A program made the position numbers and the translations under genes. Positions 1,505 through 21,136 of a stretch of 64,000 nt of DNA are shown piece by piece. Under the pieces are notes generated by a model that worked only from the letters and a program-made list of their open reading frames with translations, ran no database searches and had not been told where the DNA came from. This DNA comes from an uncultured delta proteobacterium. GTDB taxonomy: Bacteria > Desulfobacterota > Syntrophorhabdia > Syntrophorhabdales > WCHB1-27. How positions within the stretch are numbered: the first letter of the stretch is position 1; every line of letters starts with the position of its first letter. The stretch lies in NCBI GenBank assembly GCA_963810935.1, contig CAWEPK010000005.1, positions 64,001-128,000 of the forward strand. The letters are read 5' to 3'.

Positions 1505-2884
1505 ATGCCTATGGACGCAGCGACTATAGATAAGATAAGGGCAATCTGCGGCGCGGAGAACGTCAAGGAGTCGCTCGAAGAGCGCAAATGCTACGCCTAT
1601 GACGGAAGGACGGAAGGCACGATCCCCGACCTTGTCGTTTTCCCCGCGTCCGCCGGAGAAGTATCGGAGATACTCAAGCTCGCCAACAACCTCCTTTTCC
1701 CCATAATCCCCAGGGGGCAGGGCTCCGGCCTTACGGGCGGGTCCGTGCCCGCGAGCGGCGGGGTCGTCCTGTCGTTCATGCGCATGGACCGCATTCTCGA
1801 GATCGACACGGCAAATCTGGTGACCGTTGTGGAACCTGGGGTCATCACGTTCGTCCTGCAGCAGGAGGTCGCAAAAAAGGGGCTTTTCTACCCGCCGGAC
1901 CCTTCTTCGTATAAATATTCGAGCATCGGCGGCAATGTGGCCGAGTGCGCCGGCGGCCCGAACTCGCTTAAATACGGCGTGACCCGCGACTATGTGCTTG
2001 GACTTGAGATCGTGCTCCCCACCGGAGAGATACTGAACGTGGGCGTCCGGACGATGAAGGGCGTAGTCGGCTACGACCTGACAAGGCTCTTTGTGGGCAG
2101 CGAGGGCACCCTCGGCGTCATTACGAAAATAACGCTCAAGCTCATCCCCCTGCCTGAGGCGAAGGTGACCCTTCTGGCCCTGTTCGGCGACGTGGAGGAG
2201 GCGGCGCAGACGGTCTCGGCCATTATCGCCGCAAAGATAGTACCGGCTACGATAGAGTTCATGGACAAATCGTCTATACAGTGCAGCGAGAAGGCATCAC
2301 CCATGGGCCTGCCCGAGGGCGTAGGCGGCCTGCTTCTGATCGAGGTCGATGGGACACGGGAAGGGGCGCTCGCCCAGGCGGAAAAAGTCCGCTCGATTGC
2401 CGCCGCCCGCCGCGCTGTCCGCTGCGACCTGACGGAAGACCCCGTCGAGGCGGACAAGCTATGGCAGGCGCGCAGGGTCCTCTCGCAGGCGACTTATAAC
2501 ATCAACCCCGTCAAGATAGCGGAGGACGTGGTAGTGCCACGCTCCGAGATACCGGCTTTCATCCGGTCCCTCGAGGCGCTGCAGGAGCGCTTTGGCGTGC
2601 CTATCCTGAGCTTCGGCCACGCGGGCGACGGAAACTTCCACGTCAGCCTCATGATAAAAGACACGGCCGAAGACAGGCAAAAGGCCGAAGAGGCGGTGAA
2701 AGAGATATTCGCCGAGGCCTTGAGGCGCGGAGGCACCATGTCCGGCGAACACGGCATAGGGCTCTCAAAAGCGCCATATCTGGGCATGGAGCTGTCGGAC
2801 GACGTGATAGCGACCATGAAAAAGATCAAGGTGTCGTTCGACCCGAACAATATTCTCAACCCCGGCAAGATATTCCCTAGTTAA
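1505..2884 (+). CDS. FAD-linked oxidase, glycolate oxidase GlcD / D-lactate dehydrogenase family
   Basis: PRGQGSGLTGG, YPPDPSS, GSEGTLG, HAGDGNFH, SGEHGIG, NILNPGK. Confidence 0.88.
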   Translation: MPMDAATIDKIRAICGAENVKESLEERKCYAYDGRTEGTIPDLVVFPASAGEVSEILKLANNLLFPIIPRGQGSGLTGGSVPASGGVVLSFMRMDRILEIDTANLVTVVEPGVITFVLQQEVAKKGLFYPPDPSSYKYSSIGGNVAECAGGPNSLKYGVTRDYVLGLEIVLPTGEILNVGVRTMKGVVGYDLTRLFVGSEGTLGVITKITLKLIPLPEAKVTLLALFGDVEEAAQTVSAIIAAKIVPATIEFMDKSSIQCSEKASPMGLPEGVGGLLLIEVDGTREGALAQAEKVRSIAAARRAVRCDLTEDPVEADKLWQARRVLSQATYNINPVKIAEDVVVPRSEIPAFIRSLEALQERFGVPILSFGHAGDGNFHVSLMIKDTAEDRQKAEEAVKEIFAEALRRGGTMSGEHGIGLSKAPYLGMELSDDVIATMKKIKVSFDPNNILNPGKIFPS

Positions 2885-2887
2885 TGT

Positions 2888-3018
2888 GGGGCCTGGCTCT
2901 TTCCGCGCCTTTCGCGTCGTTTTCTCGGGCGCGAGTCCTCACGTACACAAAACGTACGCTGCGGCTCGCTTCGTCGAAAAGCAACGCGAAATCCATCGGA
3001 AATAGCCAGGCCCGTTGC
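2888..3018 (+). repeat. REP/MITE-like palindromic element, family A copy 1
   Basis: Terminal inverted repeats GGGCCTGGCT (2889-2898) / AGCCAGGCCC (3004-3013); internal CTCACGTAC-N-GTACGCT core; colinear with the reverse complement of 6229-6359. Confidence 0.85.
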
Positions 3019-3064
3019 AACTCTTTGGCCGGTTTACCTGAGGCTTTGGAATCTTTCAACGCTG

Positions 3065-3589
3065 TCACGGACTCTTGATAATCTGCCGAATCAACTTAGC
3101 TACATCAGGTGGCAACGCGTCCTGACGTGCCTCTGATAGGAAGGCAGCGAGCAGCGGTTGGACTTCAGCAAGAAGCCCAGAGAAGTCCCACTGTTTTGTC
3201 ACCGGTGTACCAAACTGTCGGCCAGTTGTTAGATGCGCCATTTCTTTGTTTGCACGCGTGCGAGCTTCAGACAGTGTCTGGCTCATGGCCGGCCGGGCGG
3301 TATCCCAGATCCCAGGTTTACAGAAATCGGATGCCGACAGGTCGGTTGGTTTTGGGCTTATATACAGGAAGTCAATCACGTTCCGAAGATGGAGTACGAA
3401 CCCTTCTATTTTAAGATTTCTCATTAGCGCTGCGTCGGCCGCGCTTGACACCCCGACCATTGTGGGTTTTGAAAGAAGCGTGCCGACCCCAAAAAGCATG
3501 TCAATCTCGTAGAATAGGTGCTCCTCTGAATAGGCTTGAAGGTAACTATCGCCGAAGGGCCTTTTAGGTTGGGTCTTGACTGTAGCCAT
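3065..3589 (-). CDS. Hypothetical protein, possibly HEPN-like
   Basis: Lower-GC ORF; GGAGG RBS 6 nt before ATG 3589; C-terminal RANKEMAH motif. Confidence 0.6.
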   Translation of the reverse strand: MATVKTQPKRPFGDSYLQAYSEEHLFYEIDMLFGVGTLLSKPTMVGVSSAADAALMRNLKIEGFVLHLRNVIDFLYISPKPTDLSASDFCKPGIWDTARPAMSQTLSEARTRANKEMAHLTTGRQFGTPVTKQWDFSGLLAEVQPLLAAFLSEARQDALPPDVAKLIRQIIKSP

Positions 3590-3823
3590 GATCATCCTCC
3601 TGTCTAGAGAAAACGAAACGGTATGATGCTTTTCGGCCTTGTCTCTACTATTCTGCTCATGCTCCACGCTTCCAAATAGATATTTACCACCCACATTCTC
3701 TAAACACAAGTAAACTGTCCCAATAACCTCTCAACTGATATTGACACTTTCCCATCCCCATGCTAATTTTTCTTTTCATTTCCGGACATTTCTGTGCCGA
3801 TGGGGAGGAGAGGCTTTTAGACG

Positions 3824-5962
3824 ATGTGCGCCTTTACGCTGAGAGAGATCAAACGGTTTGACTACAAGAGGCCGGATATACGGAACGGGTACGCCAACCA
3901 GACCCTTGACGTAAACCTCTCGGACCTGACGATCGATATAAAACCCGTGACCGAACAAATGAAGGAGACCTTCATCGGAGGAAAAGGCTTCGACCTTTGG
4001 CTCCTCTGGAACGCGGTGCAATCGTCCACGCGATGGAACGACCCAGAGAACGCCATCTGCATTGCCTCCGGCCCGATGGGCGGCACGTCGGTCTACCCCG
4101 GGTCCGGCAAGAGCATCGTCACGTGCATCTCCGCGACGACCGGCTCCGTAATGGATTCGAACGTGGGCGGTTATTTCGGCCCGTACCTCAAGTTCTCAGG
4201 CTTCGACGCAATGGCGGTTCAGGGCAAATCGAAGGCACCGGTTGTCGTCTACATCGACGGCGTCGATTGGCATGTAGAGATTTTCGAGGCCGAGGGGCTG
4301 CCGGATCAGTCGCACGACCGGACGACCGCGCTGACGGACCATTTCGGCAAGGGAGCGCAGAAGGACATCTCCGTGGTAACGACGGGGCCGGCCGCGCACC
4401 ACACCCTCATCGGGTGCCTCAATTTCTCATGGTACGACCAGAAACGGGGAAGGGCAAGGCTCAAACAGGCCGGCCGCGGGGGCATAGGCACGGTCTTCGC
4501 GGACAAGGGGATCGCCGCCCTCGTCGTGCGCTGGCACCCGGTAAAGCTTGAGACCAATGACCCGGCTGACACAGCATTGTTGAAACGGGTGGCGAAGCTC
4601 CACTCTGCCGAGATCCTCGAACAGGACCCGAAGCAAAACCATATGTCCACGGTGGGGACGGCGCACCTCGTCACGATCATGAACGATTACGACCTGCTGC
4701 CGGTCCGCAACTACCGTTACGGCAGCCACCCGGACGCGCCCCTGATGGGCGAAGACGTCTTCCTGAAACTCTTCGATAAGGGCTTCGACGGCTGTTGGAT
4801 CGGCTGCACCCTCTCGTGCGCGCACGGCGTCAAGGATTTCGTGCCGGTGAGCGGGCCGCGCAAGGGAGACAGGGTATTCGTAGACGGACCGGAGTATGAG
4901 ACCATCGCAGGGTGCGGATCGAATTGCGGCATCTTCGACCCCCATCACGTAGTCGAGATGAACTATTATTGCGACACCTACGGGCTCGACTCGATCTCCG
5001 CCGGCACGGGCATCGCCTTTGCGATGGAATGCTTCGAGATGGGCCTCATCGACAAGACGCACACGGAAGGCCTCGACCTTTCCTTCGGCAACAAGGAAAG
5101 CGCCCTGGAGCTGATGCACCAGATGGCCGCAGGCGTTGGGTTCGGCAAAATCGTAGGCCAGGGCGTCCGAAGGATGAAAGAGATATTCGCCGGCAGTTTC
5201 GGCGCCGACATTGCCGTGCTCTCCGACATCGGCATGGAGGCAAAGGGCCTGGAGTTCTCCGAATACATGAGCAAAGAATCGCTCGCGCAGCAGGGCGGCT
5301 ACGGCCTGGCCCTCAAAGGCCCACAACACGACGAGGCCTGGCTGATCTTCCTCGATATGGTGCATAACCTGCTGCCGACCTTCGACAAGAAGGCCGAGTC
5401 GCTTCATTGGTTCCCCCTCTTCCGCACCTGGTTCGGCCTGTGCGGGCTTTGCAAGCTGCCGTGGAACGACGTCAGCCCGGCCGACAACAAAGAGACGGCG
5501 GAGCCTGCGAAGGTCATGAAGCACGTCGAGTGGTATGCGCAATACTATGGCGCAGTCACCGGCAAGGAGGCGACGCCCGAAGACCTCATAATGATGAGCG
5601 AGAGGGTATACAACTTCCAGCGCATCTTCTGCGTCAGGATGGGCTTCGGCCGCAGGGAGCACGATGCCATCCCTTACCGGGCCATGGGGCCGGTAACCGT
5701 TGACGAATACGAGTCGAGGGCGGAGCGCTACGACGGCCAGTTGAAAGAATTATACAACGTGGACATCGACGGGAAGGCAACCGCAGAGAAGGTGGCGCTT
5801 TTGAGGCGCCTGCGCGAGGATAGGTACGAGCAGCTCAAGGACGCTGTGTACGAGCGCAGGGGCTGGACGGCGGACGGCATCCCTACCCTTGCAACCGTAA
5901 GGCGGCTGGGCATCGACTTCCCCGAGGTAATCGACGTATTGAATAAGCACGGGGTAGCGTGA
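3824..5962 (+). CDS. Aldehyde:ferredoxin oxidoreductase family (W/Mo pterin)
   Basis: FIGGKG, DSNVGGYFG, AGRGGIG, C-x2-C-x3-C, GPEYET, YGLDSIS, C-terminal RGWTADGIP. Confidence 0.9.
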   Translation: MCAFTLREIKRFDYKRPDIRNGYANQTLDVNLSDLTIDIKPVTEQMKETFIGGKGFDLWLLWNAVQSSTRWNDPENAICIASGPMGGTSVYPGSGKSIVTCISATTGSVMDSNVGGYFGPYLKFSGFDAMAVQGKSKAPVVVYIDGVDWHVEIFEAEGLPDQSHDRTTALTDHFGKGAQKDISVVTTGPAAHHTLIGCLNFSWYDQKRGRARLKQAGRGGIGTVFADKGIAALVVRWHPVKLETNDPADTALLKRVAKLHSAEILEQDPKQNHMSTVGTAHLVTIMNDYDLLPVRNYRYGSHPDAPLMGEDVFLKLFDKGFDGCWIGCTLSCAHGVKDFVPVSGPRKGDRVFVDGPEYETIAGCGSNCGIFDPHHVVEMNYYCDTYGLDSISAGTGIAFAMECFEMGLIDKTHTEGLDLSFGNKESALELMHQMAAGVGFGKIVGQGVRRMKEIFAGSFGADIAVLSDIGMEAKGLEFSEYMSKESLAQQGGYGLALKGPQHDEAWLIFLDMVHNLLPTFDKKAESLHWFPLFRTWFGLCGLCKLPWNDVSPADNKETAEPAKVMKHVEWYAQYYGAVTGKEATPEDLIMMSERVYNFQRIFCVRMGFGRREHDAIPYRAMGPVTVDEYESRAERYDGQLKELYNVDIDGKATAEKVALLRRLREDRYEQLKDAVYERRGWTADGIPTLATVRRLGIDFPEVIDVLNKHGVA

Positions 5963-6159
5963 TGGTGCGGGTAGACGGCAGGGGCGTGCCGTGGCGCGAT
6001 GGGATGACCATCGCCGACCTTTTGAAGGAGCTTAACGACCCCTTCCCCTATCCTGTCGCACGCATAGACGGCCGCGCAATCACCGCGCAGGAATTCGACA
6101 GTTTTCCCCTTCCTGACGACATAGAAGTTCACCTGATACCGCTGGTCGCAGGCGGCTGA
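5959..6159 (+). CDS. ThiS/MoaD-family sulfur carrier protein
   Basis: 66 aa with C-terminal VAGG; translationally coupled to AOR. Confidence 0.85.
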   Translation: MMVRVDGRGVPWRDGMTIADLLKELNDPFPYPVARIDGRAITAQEFDSFPLPDDIEVHLIPLVAGG

Positions 6160-6228
6160 ACCGGTATTATCCGGACTATCAGAGCCCGAGAAAAACCATA
6201 TTGTTGTAAAGCGGGAAATAACTGAAGC

Positions 6229-6359
6229 GCAAGCGGCCGAGGCGATTTTCGATGGAATTCGCGTTGCTTTTCGAAGGCGCGCGGCGGAGCGTACGTAGTG
6301 GGTACGTGAGCAAGCCGCGCCGAGAAAACGGCGCGAAGGCCGCGAAAAGCGCCCGGCCC
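6229..6359 (-). repeat. REP/MITE-like palindromic element, family A copy 2 (inverted)
   Basis: Reverse complement aligns along its length with 2888-3018 (shared TTTTCTCGG, CTCACGTAC, ACGTACGCT, CGAAAAGCAACGCGAA, TCCATCG); lies between convergent genes. Confidence 0.85.
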
Positions 6360-6367
6360 TCAACCCA

Positions 6368-6607
6368 CTAGGGGGCGAAGTTGGAGAGCTGGTATGGTAT
6401 CTCCTTCTCTTCCAGCTCCTGCTTCTTTTCGAAATAGACCTCGCCGGCGGCGATCTCCCTCAGGGAAGTTACTACCTCCCGGTTGGTCGATTTTACCATC
6501 GGCTTCGATCCCTTGACGAGTTGTTTCGATCTCTTCGCAGCGAGGTGGACAAGCTCGAAGCGGTTTTCAACCTTATCCATGCAATCTTCAACGGTTATCC
6601 TGGCCAT
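6368..6607 (-). CDS. rpoZ: RNA polymerase omega subunit
   Basis: MARITVEDC...NRFELV...LREIA. Confidence 0.95.
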
Positions 6608-17178: not shown

Positions 17179-18849
17179 CTACCTATGTTTCTCTTTGCTT
17201 CTAAGCAAATCTTGTGCCCAAAGTTGTTTCATATGATCCTTGATTCGAGTTCTATTGTCAGCTATGATCGCCTGCCACTCTGATGATGCGGGTTTTTTCT
17301 TCCTAACGACAAAAAGGAACAGTTGCATATCATTACCCCAGGCATCCTGCAATTGTTTTACGCTCTCCGATAGGTCTGACAATGGAACTGCACGTTTATT
17401 GTTATCGATCAAGCAAGTCAAAGTCTTAAATTCCGTTCTTACCAGACGTGATGCTTCTCCAGATATCATCGCCGTTTCCTCATACCGTATGGCCGAGTAG
17501 CTCTTGAATTTGCCCCTATCAGTTTCGAGAATAAACTGCTCGTCAGTGAAAAGGACTTCCTTCAGGCGATGTTCGTCCCTAATAACGAGATGTTCATTCG
17601 CCTTTTCGACATAATCGTTGAGCAGCGGCCTTCTTGAGGACAAATTATCCCCATATACACCCTCACTTCTTATCAAAACCTTTAGTTCTTCATCGAAGGC
17701 ACGGTACTCACTTATGTTTTTGAAGACCGCTTTAGCGTACTTTTCCCTAAAAAGAACTATCCGAAGAAGTGGACATAATATTTCGAAATCATTTTTGAAT
17801 TCCTCATCGGTTTGCTGGCAGATGCGAAACGCCTCCCTCAGCTTCGACGTGAGAACGTCATCGTTGAAAGGAAGTTCATCTATGATATATCTGCTATAGT
17901 GAAAGTCGTCAATCTTAAGCAAATTTCCCAGAGGATGGCCAGGCTGTTTCGAATGCCTTAGCAACCTCATGATGATCTGCTCCATAGCCGTATCCGTCAG
18001 CACCACGTGCGGATGGTAGTAAAGCCATTTGTACAACTTGTAACGCTCAAGAAAGAAGGCTTCGACCGTGCTAAGGGCAGACATGGAGGGCATTACTTGA
18101 TAGTATTTTCCCGCATTATCCCAAAATAAAACCATTGACTCCACGAGTCGAGTAAGGTCGTATTGGCCAAATCCAATTCCACTCGCAATGCCGTCCCTGA
18201 TGATGAAGTCAGCGCGATCAGCGTCCACGTCCGACGAAACAATGCCATGAATTGTAGCAAATACGTTCAAAGGTTGAGGGCCAAAAATGTTTAGCAACTT
18301 GTCCTTGTAGTCATAGCCACCTTTCAATAAAGGATCAAGCTCCGCGTTATCTCGTATCAGACAGAAGGTCGCAAATTCATGAATGGGTGGCGCTTTTCCA
18401 TCAGCCTTCTCTGCAAAGCGGTTGAAGGCAGGATCTTTGCTATACAAATCAACCCCATCCTCTCCTATAACCGTCTCGCTCAGGTGGGACAGAGGTAAAT
18501 GACCAAGGTCATGGAGCAAGCCGGACAACCTTACGAGTTGCAAGAACAGTTTTTTACTTTCCTCCAAGTCCTTTCCGCCAAGGGACTTCTGACAAAGCTC
18601 AAGGAAGTGAAGCCGATCATCCTTGTCTGACATCTCTATTGCATAGGATGCCATTTTGCCCGCTAATTCCATCGTTCCCAAACTGTGTACGAAGCGATCC
18701 ACATGGTGAGATGGATACGTGAAATATGCGGTTGAGCTTTGTTTGATGTTCTGAAGCCGAAGGAAGATTCTGGTGTTTATGATCTCTGTCTCAAGGGGGC
18801 TTAAGTGTATATAATTATGTACAGGGTCTCGAATTACTTTCTGGGCCAT
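17179..18849 (-). CDS. HD-domain phosphohydrolase, dNTP triphosphohydrolase (SAMHD1/YwfO-like) family
   Basis: IRDPVH, RLQNIKQ, RFVHSLG, LLHDLGHLPLSH, DADRADFIIRD, R-x2-LYKWLYYH. Confidence 0.85.
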   Translation of the reverse strand: MAQKVIRDPVHNYIHLSPLETEIINTRIFLRLQNIKQSSTAYFTYPSHHVDRFVHSLGTMELAGKMASYAIEMSDKDDRLHFLELCQKSLGGKDLEESKKLFLQLVRLSGLLHDLGHLPLSHLSETVIGEDGVDLYSKDPAFNRFAEKADGKAPPIHEFATFCLIRDNAELDPLLKGGYDYKDKLLNIFGPQPLNVFATIHGIVSSDVDADRADFIIRDGIASGIGFGQYDLTRLVESMVLFWDNAGKYYQVMPSMSALSTVEAFFLERYKLYKWLYYHPHVVLTDTAMEQIIMRLLRHSKQPGHPLGNLLKIDDFHYSRYIIDELPFNDDVLTSKLREAFRICQQTDEEFKNDFEILCPLLRIVLFREKYAKAVFKNISEYRAFDEELKVLIRSEGVYGDNLSSRRPLLNDYVEKANEHLVIRDEHRLKEVLFTDEQFILETDRGKFKSYSAIRYEETAMISGEASRLVRTEFKTLTCLIDNNKRAVPLSDLSESVKQLQDAWGNDMQLFLFVVRKKKPASSEWQAIIADNRTRIKDHMKQLWAQDLLRSKEKHR

Positions 18850-19484
18850 AATAGCTTCATATCAATGTTGCGAGCAATTAAGAACGGCATCAGCAGGCAA
18901 GCACAAGGTACATGGGCCTCTCCGTTACATGCGTTGTCTTCTCCATTTGTTTTGCGCCGATGCCCATACCTGCACACTTTCTATTATACTTACCACACTG
19001 AAGCAGAAAACAAAACATTAAAAGTTGTTGTTTTTGCTGGCCACCGCCTGTCATGCTCTTAATTATCTTGATAATAAGCGCTTTTCCGCCTCTGGGATTC
19101 CTGAAACTCCGGCGCTATTCTTGAGCACAGTGGATCGCCCTGGTTTTCACGACAACTGGCTTATCATCCTAGGCAACATCAGTGGGTCTTTGCATACCAT
19201 GAAATCCCATTTCCCCAGCCGTCCCCAGTTGTTCACTACTATGGGCCTTAACCTGTGAATTTAAAAGGGTTTTGGAAAGACTGTATAGTGAAATGTATAG
19301 GAGGGGTAAGTATGAAGATCGCAGAGATTGACAAGAATAAAACAGAGAAAATCTTTATCAGCATTGAGGAATACCGGAGTCTCTATGCTATAAAAGCCCT
19401 CTTCCACAGGGACGGATAAAAAGGCTACCCTCTTTCTCTTAAGCGATGGATGCACATCGCAAACCAAGGAAAGGGAGGTAGCCA

Positions 19485-20558
19485 ATGGAGATTGATAGGG
19501 TACAGGATTTTGTGGTTGAAGGTAAAGAGGTTTTTATCGGTTTGGAAGACTCAAAGAAGACCTGGAAGATAGCAGTTCGGTGCGACAGGATGGTGATCCA
19601 CCAGGTATCCATGGAGGCAAAGTATGTCTTGCTGAAGCAATACCTGAGAAACAGGTTCCCCGGTTGCACGGTCCATTTGATGTACGAAGCAGGCTTCAAG
19701 GGGTTCAACCTTCACGATCTTCTTGCCGAAGACGGCATCGACTGCGTGGTGATCCCTCCCCATATGGTGACGGAGCCGAAGGCAAACAAGGTTAAGACCG
19801 ATAAAAGGGATGCAAACCGTCTCGCCCGCATCCTGGAGAGCCACGATTACGGGGACCCCTGCTGTGTACCCGACAAAGAGAGGAGGGAGGACCGGCAGGT
19901 AAGCCGTACCATAATCGCCATACAGAAGGATATCATCGGTAACCGCAACCGCATCCGCAAGCTCCTCGACTTTCACGGGATCGAGGGCCCCTTTGCCGGT
20001 AAGAGCGAAGGGGCGAAAGGAGTTCGAGGGTCTTCGGACATTACCCCTGAGCGATCCCTTAAGGGCAGCTCTGGGCTCGCTTTTGACCATACTGGAGGAA
20101 CTGTGGGGCCAGCGTGCGGTCTTGAGGGACTATCTCCGGGGTCTGTGCAAGAAGGAGCGTTATAGAAAGCCCTACGAGGTCGCAAAGAGCATCCCCGGCA
20201 TAGGGTGGTTCACAGCCATCCGCCTGATATTAGAGTGGGGGAGGATCTCTCCCGTTTCGGAAGCGGGAAGAAGATCGCAGGCTTCGTGGGGTTGGGCTGC
20301 AGCGAGCATTCGACGGGCCAGACCGAACGGAAAGGTCGTATCACGGGCATGGGGTCGGGGTTCATACGGCATATCCTGGTCGAGAATGCCTGGATAGCGA
20401 TCAGAAAGGACCCGGCCCTGCTGTCCAAGTTCTCACGGGTATGGCGGTCGAGCGGCAGTAAGAAGAAAGCCATAGTGGCAGTTGCCCGTACTCTTATTGT
20501 GCGCCTTCGGGCCTGCATGCTTTCGGGCAGGCCTTATACGGTCGGAGTTATTAGATAG
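19485..20558 (+). CDS. IS110-family (DEDD/RuvC-like + Tnp20) recombinase with two apparent frameshifts near 19990 and 20238
   Basis: FIGLEDSK, YEAG, KTDKRDA, SIPGIG, SEHSTG, KKAIVAVAR motifs across ORFs 19485-20165, 19993-20397 and 20205-20558. Confidence 0.92.
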
Positions 20559-20561
20559 GAT

Positions 20562-20733
20562 GAGCCTGACGGAAGAGGACCTTAACGGAACAAGGGCGTA
20601 CAACGCCACGTACGCTGTATTAAAGAACGGCCCGGAGTATGTTGACGCCCGTTCCTCTTTTTTCGAAAAGCAGACACATGTGGGTTGGACCACGAATAGC
20701 AGCTTGCAAAGAACCTCCTCTTCAAAAAGGCTC
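20562..20733 (+). ncRNA. Predicted bridge/seek RNA of the IS110 element
   Basis: Closing stems GAGCCT/AGGCTC and GAAGAGGA/TCCTCTTC; loop 1 holds ACGTACGCT (20608-20616) and CCGGAG (20632-20637), matching the target flanks; loop 2 holds ATAGCAG (20696-20702), identical to the IS right end 20880-20886. Confidence 0.75.
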
Positions 20734-21136
20734 GCGCTTCGGCCGCGGACCTGTGTAAGGTCGTCGGCCTCGCGCTCGCTATCGGATATGTACTCATAAT
20801 AACAAGGGAAAGTCATGGACTGACCCATAAAGAAAAGGGGGTAGCAAAAGCCCGCTGGAAGAATCCGTTGACTTTTATCATAGCAGGCGTACGTTTGTAG
20901 ACCTTCGGGTGTACTGGAAGGATGAAGTGGGCGAGTATAAGTCGTCAAAGAAAGGAATTGCCCTTTACGATGAGACCATTGACCCGGTTATCGAGGCGCT
21001 CAAGAAAGCGAGTAAGGCCCTTGAAAAGTGAGACAACCTATTCCTCTCGCGCCCGCGTATATAAATCACGGAATCTATCCGTGGTCCCCTTCAACCGGCT
21101 GTATCCTAGTCCTATACCTCTCGCGTTTTTTGTCAT

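What the first reader, a model, noticed from the sequence alone, without database searches (positions are those of the whole stretch)
2952..6296. The IS110 guide appears programmed against the host's REP-like repeat
Seen: the target spelled by the two guides, ACGTACG-CT-CCGG, matches 12/13 nt in both family-A repeats: ACGTACGCTGCGG (2952-2964, +) and ACGTACGCTCCGC (6284-6296, -). Their consensus is the perfect target. Established: some IS110 members such as IS621 target REP sequences. Inference: this element's intended landing pad is a multicopy intergenic palindrome, i.e. a safe-harbour strategy in this lineage.
Basis: partly seen in the sequence, partly recalled or inferred. Interest (0 to 1): 0.8.

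Follow-up and report, generated by a model that had tools for sequence, protein, structure and literature searches.

The report
Guided IS1111 element targets host hairpins
A small RNA-guided jumping gene carries a guide that spells the tip of its host's scattered hairpin repeats, and most of its copies sit exactly there; this habit is already known for the family, but its relatives show the guide being re-aimed many times at different spots of the same repeats.

Summary
Confirmed, and a new member of a known kind. The element lies at window 19380-20886, outside the finding's coordinates. It is an IS1111-group element with a right-end bridge/seek RNA whose guides spell ACGTACG-CT-CCGG.

All 4 exact and 26 of 31 near-exact genomic 13-mers lie in family-A hairpins (82 copies). 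Of 4 genomic copies, 1 splits a family-A repeat at the predicted CT and 2 split a related family-B repeat. The window's own copy interrupts a PC4-domain gene at a look-alike site. Two of the 4 targets carry one extra base next to the core.

In relatives, guides covary with flanks, and 18 of 49 sites hit repeat A or B, at several offsets and on both strands, from separate clades. A sister element (9 copies) uses the same site with A where ours has C, each matching its host's commonest repeat variant.

Repeat targeting is published (IS621, ISPa11, ISPpu9/10, IS1111-QMITE2), and this scan found it before on other genomes. 'Safe harbour' as the cause is inference. No RNA or activity data.

The parts
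2889..3003 (+). family-A long hairpin repeat, unoccupied (arms 2875-3014)
   Evidence: nhmmer hit C5:66889-67003; DNA fold z -6.28; inverted pair I1
2952..2964 (+). guide-like 13-mer ACGTACG-CT-GCGG on the 3' arm of the apical stem; mismatch at the first base after the core
6245..6359 (-). second family-A repeat, unoccupied (arms 6234-6373)
6284..6296 (-). guide-like 13-mer ACGTACG-CT-CCGC; mismatch at the fourth base after the core
19312..19379 (+). 5' part of the PC4-domain gene interrupted by the element; ends in right target and core (CCGG-AG, 19374-19379)
19380..20886 (+). IS1111-group insertion sequence (IS110 family), about 1.51 kb, core AG at both junctions
   Evidence: 4 copies at 99% identity with differing flanks
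19384..19398 (+). left subterminal inverted repeat and -10-like hexamer TATGCT of the predicted circle-junction promoter
19485..20558 (+). IS110-family recombinase gene (358 aa in intact copies); frameshifted in the window by single-base deletions that are probably assembly errors
   Evidence: PF01548 and PF02371, NF033542 173.6 bits over cut-off 140; indels; gap-free contig
20587..20713 (+). predicted bridge/seek RNA core: target-binding loop then donor-binding loop
   Evidence: fold z -3.76 for the right end; consensus of 64 relatives, 37 pairs, 12 with compensatory change, loops variable
20608..20616 (+). left target guide ACGTACG + CT
20632..20637 (+). right target guide CCGG + AG
20671..20677 (+). 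left donor guide (5 of 7 match to the element's left end)
20696..20702 (+). right donor guide ATAGCAG (7 of 7 match to the element's right end)
20868..20886 (+). -35-like TTGACT, right subterminal inverted repeat and core AG
20887..21031 (+). 3' part of the interrupted PC4-domain gene; begins with the extra base and the left target (G-CGTACGT)
   Evidence: PF02229, E 1.4e-7; the frame is continuous across the empty site only with the extra base

Best explanation
An IS1111-group, RNA-guided insertion sequence whose target guides are set to the apex of a modular family of host hairpin repeats (A and its relative B). SHOWN from sequence: element ends, duplicated core, guide-target and guide-donor complementarity, covariation of guides with flanks across relatives, and 3 of 4 copies splitting a repeat at the predicted core. 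INFERRED from the published IS621 and ISEc11 mechanism: the element excises as a circle, the junction forms a TTGACT-17-TATGCT promoter, the right-end RNA loads on the recombinase, pairs with both strands of ACGTACG-CT-CCGG and with the circle junction, and recombines at the CT/AG core in one orientation. Base pairing alone seems enough: the window's copy hit an unstructured look-alike in a gene. The left guide can be read in two registers, with or without one extra base before the core, so that one guide serves family A (13-mer) and family B (14-mer). INFERRED and untested: such guides persist because multicopy, mostly intergenic sites give many low-cost landing places (about 0.6), and the guide is tuned to the host's own repeat variant (about 0.5).
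For: 4 copies with flanks. Repeat families and junction halves. Enrichment 4 of 4 and 26 of 31; exact 14-mer 3 of 4 in B; shuffled controls 0. Repeats cover 0.31% of the genome, P(>=3 of 4) = 1.2e-7 (family B was seeded from one occupied site, so take this as optimistic). Repeat midpoints fall inside long ORFs in 14 of 83 (A) and 8 of 27 (B) hits against 84% of the genome. Guide-flank match 6.32 of 7 (72 rows; null mean 2.88, max 3.39) and 3.25 of 4 (63 rows; null 1.18, max 1.57). Donor guides track the element ends. 18 of 49 non-redundant two-flank sites hit A or B over the core. Sister element in G004: 9 copies, 6 hit family A, 8 of 8 parsed left flanks end in CCGG. Loop-end base: C 29 vs A 17 in G000 (guide C); C 0 vs A 14 in G004 (guide A); C 1 vs A 124 over the 7 genomes of G004's genus. 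Guide-like sites with intact core and right target lie in repeats in 21 of 29 cases, close to the 3 of 4 observed.
Against: Only 1 of 4 copies is in family A itself, and 1 of 4 interrupts a gene. 31 of 49 sites of relatives do not hit A or B, so most of the wider family aims elsewhere or at repeats that the G000-trained models miss. 3 of 9 G004 copies give no HMM hit. The 4 exact 13-mers and the 3 exact 14-mers in B are unoccupied. Host tuning rests on two elements; within the window's own genus G001 (C 12, A 49) and G003 (C 0, A 8) favour A, and the element was not found in G001-G003. Register assignment in other elements is ambiguous: 51 standard, 10 '+1', 9 '-1' of 70. No expression, circle or activity data.
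Confidence: 0.88

Rival explanations
1. Sequence-plus-structure gate: the recombinase also reads the hairpin, as reported for ISPpu10, because the left target is the 3' arm of the apical stem. The repeat is then preferred beyond its sequence match.
For: At the three repeat insertions the left target pairs with upstream sequence with mean probability 0.72-0.75 against a background of 0.39. The same geometry is described for ISPpu10 (bioRxiv 10.64898/2026.03.19.712850; abstract and sections 8 and 11 read). A clade of 9 guide types stays on the apex.
Against: The window's own site scores 0.24. Over all 18 repeat sites the mean is 0.43 against 0.40 for the 31 other sites. The share of guide-like sites in repeats (21 of 29) already predicts 3 of 4. 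Four insertions cannot exclude a twofold enhancement.
Confidence: 0.25
2. The guide is aimed mainly at family B, or at the PC4-domain gene of integrative elements, and family A is the side target.
For: 2 of 4 copies are in B and 1 is in the PC4 gene beside an integrase remnant and tRNA genes. Close relatives in the same clade target the B apex.
Against: The standard-register 13-mer occurs exactly only in A (4 of 4) and in no unoccupied B copy within 2 mismatches. The sister element uses the same core in A. A and B share the apex module, and one hybrid copy is seen in G001, so the distinction is partly artificial.
Confidence: 0.2
3. Reverse or neutral history: the C variant of the repeat spread in this genus for reasons of its own, and the guide's match at that base is incidental or reflects a horizontally acquired element that merely happened to fit.
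For: The C variant is common in G002 and present in G001, where the element was not found. Left-guide distal positions are permissive in ISPpu10.
Against: Two sister elements each match their own host's majority base; all 4 G000 targets have C and all 7 parsed G004 left targets have A at that position.
Confidence: 0.3
4. Chance match of a short, near-palindromic GC-rich word.
For: Not significant inside the window alone.
Against: Genome-wide enrichment, shuffled controls, occupied repeats and family-wide covariation.
Confidence: 0.01

Closest known systems
ISPa11 (IS1111 group, targets Pseudomonas aeruginosa REP; Siddiquee 2024 PMC11187229, passages and Introduction read; Tobes and Pareja 2006 PMC1525189, passages read)
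   Same: Guide RNA downstream of the gene, top-strand complement before bottom-strand match, subterminal inverted repeats with 7/3 spacing, oriented insertion into a host palindromic repeat
   Different: Here the target is a 115-150 bp modular hairpin limited mostly to one family of anaerobes, not a short REP; two repeat families are used through two registers; only 3 of 4 copies are in repeats against 6 of 6 for ISPa11; no experiment here
IS621 (IS110 group; Durrant 2024 PMC11208160, passages read)
   Same: 7-nt left target, CT core, 4-nt right target; separate target- and donor-binding loops; REP targeting (144 of 173 sites); the paper notes some off-targets with insertions in the target
   Different: IS621's RNA is in the left end and reads the target in the other order; no phmmer hit of this protein to any PDB chain at E<=0.001; the first catalytic motif reads GLEDS, not G-x-D
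IS1111 of Coxiella inserting into QMITE2 (Wachter 2018 PMC5896051, passages read)
   Same: IS1111-group element whose copies split a multicopy MITE-like hairpin of 150-190 bp (20 of 21 copies)
   Different: QMITE2 has a GTAG REP and direct repeats; no guide analysis there; no transposase or target duplication was identified for families A and B here
ISPpu9 / ISPpu10 (IS110 group, Pseudomonas putida REP; PMC12288879 passages; bioRxiv 10.64898/2026.03.19.712850 abstract and sections 8, 11)
   Same: AG/CT core, intergenic REP targets; in ISPpu10 the left target is one arm of a target stem-loop, as at the three repeat sites here
   Different: Left-end RNA; a structure gate was shown there (disrupting the stem cut activity to 44%) but is not supported by the natural sites here

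Membership tests
IS110 family | DEDD (RuvC-like) plus Tnp domain recombinase | tested here: met
   PF01548 and PF02371 over cut-off; NF033542 173.6 bits, cut-off 140
IS110 family | Catalytic D-E-D-D and serine | tested here: inconclusive
   E68, D106, D109, S277 present and aligned with another IS110 of the genome; the first position reads G-L-E-D-S in 99 of 99 N-termini, with E21 where G-L-D has D; which acid is catalytic is untested
IS110 family | Non-coding end folds into target- and donor-binding loops that match target and donor | tested here: met
IS110 family | Two-base core at both junctions, no terminal inverted repeats, one orientation | tested here: met
   AG at both junctions in 4 of 4 copies, same orientation to the target
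IS110 family | Circular intermediate with a junction promoter | tested here: inconclusive
   the predicted junction gives TTGACT-17-TATGCT; no circle joint appeared in contigs of 4 runs, which cannot show absence
IS110 family | RNA is expressed and bound by the recombinase; transposition depends on it | not testable with these tools
   needs RNP purification and an assay
IS1111 group | Long non-coding region downstream of the gene | tested here: met
   right end 328 nt, left end 105 nt
IS1111 group | Subterminal inverted repeats, 7 bp from the left end and 3 bp from the right | tested here: met
   ATG(CT)ATAAAAG left and ATGATAAAAG right: 10 bp with a 2-nt interruption, 7/3 spacing if the core is counted on the left; weaker than the usual 11-13 bp of PMC11187229, inside the 7-17 bp of PMC11208160
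IS1111 group | Top-strand complement precedes bottom-strand match in the RNA | tested here: met
   ACGTACGCT (complement of the top strand in gene orientation) lies 5' of CCGGAG (rule)
IS1111 group | Recombinase groups with IS1111 references in a tree | not tested
   no ISfinder reference set was at hand; the tree holds relatives only
REP / REPIN (target repeat) | Short palindrome with GTAG/CGTC tag and an adjacent RAYT/Y1 transposase (recalled definition) | tested here: not met
   unit is 115-150 bp; none of 7 Y1 transposase loci has an A or B repeat within 1.5 kb; so REP-like in role, not filed as REP
MITE (target repeat) | Terminal inverted repeats, long stem-loop, multicopy, mostly intergenic | tested here: met
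MITE (target repeat) | Target-site duplication and a cognate transposase | tested here: inconclusive
   no clean empty site in 5 related genomes at the two window loci; no duplication evident

The most novel reading that the evidence does not exclude
This clade is a natural record of guide evolution against one host repeat system. The guides have been re-aimed repeatedly, in separate branches and once convergently, at different offsets and strands of the same modular hairpin family. They follow host-specific drift of the repeat base by base (C here, A in the sister genus). One guide reads two repeat families by tolerating a one-base bulge beside the core as a normal mode, not a rare error. The recombinase does this with a fixed GLEDS (E-for-D) first catalytic motif.
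Probability: 0.4. Interest if true: 0.62.

Novelty: new member of a known kind. Interest (0 to 1): 0.42.

Why it matters
Repeat targeting by IS110/IS1111 elements is established, so the basic finding is a clean new example in an uncultured anaerobic lineage (nearest named records are Syntrophorhabdales). The added value is comparative. About 70 guide variants with natural targets make two open questions testable: how guides are re-aimed in nature, and whether they track host repeats. Natural two-register targets also bear on off-target prediction for bridge recombinases, where one-base insertions in the target were noted only among experimental off-targets in the passages read (PMC11208160).

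Tried and rejected
In-window chance test was not significant.

Rfam search of three loci holding the other copies and repeats: only a tRNA and a sub-threshold RNase P hit. PDB sequence search: no hit.

Family-A DNA searched in 150 other genomes drawn across the phylum: 0 hits. The apex patterns were found in 14 of 21 (A) and 20 of 21 (B) genomes of the family, and in 1 of 39 and 5 of 39 genomes of other families.

RAYT link: no Y1 transposase near a repeat. The other IS110 elements of the genome do not sit in A or B; one of 7 lies beside the C17b site. The element's right end was not found in G001-G003 or G009; one distant hit in G019.

Whole-site hairpin z-scores did not separate repeat from non-repeat sites well. 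Fixed-register counting of bulged targets across all relatives was unreliable because guide length varies; only same-guide pairs are used (this element; L063 versus L064). The scoring allowed a one-base shift, also in the null.

No RNA holder listed. No circle-junction joint in contigs; contigs cannot show absence, and those runs may include the source sample. Search by sequence in earlier findings: nothing.

Literature searches that returned no description of this repeat family, of this clade, of guide-repeat co-evolution or of an EEDD motif. Only listings were seen, and one search listed 10 of 414. ISfinder and the papers' supplements were not consulted and may hold a relative.
Full report
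Observation. In the window alone the count is unremarkable: 3 matches at <=2 mismatches, 2.08 expected. The element is not in the finding's interval. It lies at 19380-20886.

The element. It has four copies in the genome at 99% identity. The intact copies encode a 358-aa IS110-family recombinase. The right end is 328 nt and the left 105 nt; the subterminal repeats are imperfect with 7/3 spacing; the predicted circle junction reads TTGACT-17-TATGCT. The right end folds better than shuffles (z -3.76). A consensus of 64 relatives gives two hairpins with variable internal loops, 37 pairs, 12 with a compensatory change. The first loop holds ACGTACG-CT (20608-20616) and CCGG-AG (20632-20637); the second matches the element's own ends, and these donor guides change with the ends across relatives. 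The guide order is the IS1111 order of Siddiquee et al. (PMC11187229, passages and Introduction read). The window copy has single-base deletions that break its frame. A gap-free short-read contig carries four of that copy's private substitutions, so these are probably assembly errors; the run may be the source sample.

The repeats. Iterated nhmmer gives 83 family-A hits (82 copies, 0.23% of the genome) and 27 hits of a related family B (25 copies, 0.08%); both carry a CGTAC-loop-GTACG apex. Their midpoints fall in long ORFs in 14 of 83 and 8 of 27 cases against 84% of the genome. All 4 exact and 26 of 31 near-exact 13-mers lie in A; 40 shuffled 13-mers never hit a repeat; 3 of 4 exact 14-mers with an extra C lie in B. 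Apex patterns occur in 14 of 21 (A) and 20 of 21 (B) genomes of the family and in 1 and 5 of 39 others. No RAYT link, no Rfam match and no clean empty site was found, so the repeat is REP-like in role and MITE-like in shape, with an unknown mobiliser.

Where the copies sit. C17:17173 splits a family-A repeat at ACGTATG-CT-CCGG. C17:104561 splits a family-B repeat at ACGTACG-CT-CCGG. C7:15874 splits a family-B repeat at GCGTACGC-CT-CCGG. The window copy sits at ACGTACGC-CT-CCGG inside a PC4-domain gene next to an integrase remnant and two tRNA genes. Three of four in 0.31% of the genome has P = 1.2e-7, optimistic because B was seeded from an occupied site. The extra base is real in the window copy, since the interrupted gene is in frame only with it, and it is standard in unoccupied B copies. 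The C17b junction without it is supported by a gap-free contig. One guide therefore uses two registers, 2 of 4 each. A second same-guide pair (L063, L064) shows the same; counting over all relatives was unreliable (51 standard, 10 plus-one, 9 minus-one of 70). Durrant et al. mention tolerance for insertions in some off-targets (PMC11208160, passages).

Relatives. Loci came (32; best 80 of 190); 105 of 161 parsed loci had guides and at least one flank. Guides match flanks far above permutation: 6.32 of 7 on the left (72 rows, null max 3.39) and 3.25 of 4 on the right (63 rows, null max 1.57). Of 49 non-redundant two-flank sites, 18 hit A or B across the core and 31 do not; 5 of 39 one-flank sites also hit. 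The offsets differ: A +71 (this element and G004), A -66, A 3' end, B -43 to -45, B +47/48, B +55 to +57 and B about +81. On a tree of 68 recombinase genes, guides excluded, this element lies in a clade of 9 guide types (support 91/91, not starred; inner 8 rows 97/93), 8 of which hit the A/B apex by HMM; the ninth site resembles its sister's by eye. The 'repeat' label needs 7 changes, at least 5 forced by starred branches; these may include losses. The B +55 guides arise in two clades that the data reject as one (p-AU 1.3e-77, group named after seeing the tree). The sister element in G004 has 9 copies, 6 with an A hit, and the same right guide, but its left guide has A where ours has C. The C variant of the repeat counts 29 against 17 in G000, 0 against 14 in G004, and 1 against 124 in G004's genus. 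Against this, G001 and G003 of the window's own genus favour A, and the element was not found there.

Mechanism. Shown: ends, core, pairing potential, covariation and occupancy. Inferred from published IS621 and ISEc11 work: circle formation, junction promoter, RNA loading and recombination at the core. Sequence alone accounts for the four sites: 21 of 29 guide-like sites with intact core and right target are in repeats, and the window's site is unstructured (pairing 0.24, against 0.72-0.75 at the three repeat sites and 0.39 background). A contribution of the stem, as reported for ISPpu10 (bioRxiv 10.64898/2026.03.19.712850, abstract and two sections read), is possible but not needed. That safe, multicopy sites are why the guide persists is a reasonable inference, not a result.

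Comparison and verdict. It works like ISPa11, IS621, ISPpu9/10 and IS1111-QMITE2 (passages read) and meets the IS1111-group features that could be tested. One deviation is the invariant GLEDS motif at the first catalytic position in 99 of 99 N-termini. Passages of bioRxiv 10.1101/2025.05.14.653916, PMC3184786 and bioRxiv 10.64898/2026.08.14.744561 added nothing on this clade; no supplements were read. This scan has reported the same kind of element on other genomes. Eight searches (listings only) showed no account of this repeat family or of guides tracking a host repeat. New member of a known kind; interest 0.42, carried by the comparative features.

Noticed in passing
window:2878-3730: The first family-A repeat and the 214-aa ORF of no known family (3065-3709, -; no Pfam or NCBIfam hit) are both missing from G002, where the flanks join: a repeat-plus-cargo indel.
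   Followed up: partly
window:6234-6373; L167, L168: G001 and G002 have a family-A repeat at the same place but with different inner arms, and G001 has an A/B hybrid downstream of the FAD-oxidase gene (L173). This suggests module swapping or gene conversion among repeat copies.
   Followed up: partly
L001:2285-3361 (residues 19-23): First catalytic motif is GLEDS in 99 of 99 homolog N-termini instead of G-x-D; one search for EEDD IS110 gave 0 papers.
   Followed up: partly
G000:C8:467641-467751 and C7:259575-259722: One A and one B copy lack exactly the core region of the target (read ...GTACG-CCGG); possible imprecise-excision scars or assembly errors.
   Followed up: no
G000:C7:242636, 344358, 349529, 375963, 405337; C12:219037, 412374; C15:4882: Eight family-A copies have the apex replaced by another hairpin module ending in GGGTACCCGGC; guides of some relatives (L044, L069, L134) spell a GGGTAC target.
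   Followed up: no
window:22544-22673: Two 51-nt hairpin repeats of a third type; the same unit appears inserted in a family-B copy at C7:306313.
   Followed up: no
window:19000-21980: Decayed integrative element: PC4-domain gene, phage-integrase fragment (PF00589), tRNA-Cys and tRNA-Gly, with an HD-domain gene (17179-18849) upstream.
   Followed up: partly
window:57-1486: The dihydroxy-acid dehydratase-like gene (name recalled from the translation, not scanned) is split over three frames, consistent with indel errors in this contig.
   Followed up: no
L085, L086, L091, L092, L093: A separate clade targets a short tandem unit (TTCAAGCGG-like), a different class of repeat.
   Followed up: no
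L002:1162-2361: An unrelated 399-aa IS110 lies divergently about 200 bp from the C17b copy.
   Followed up: no
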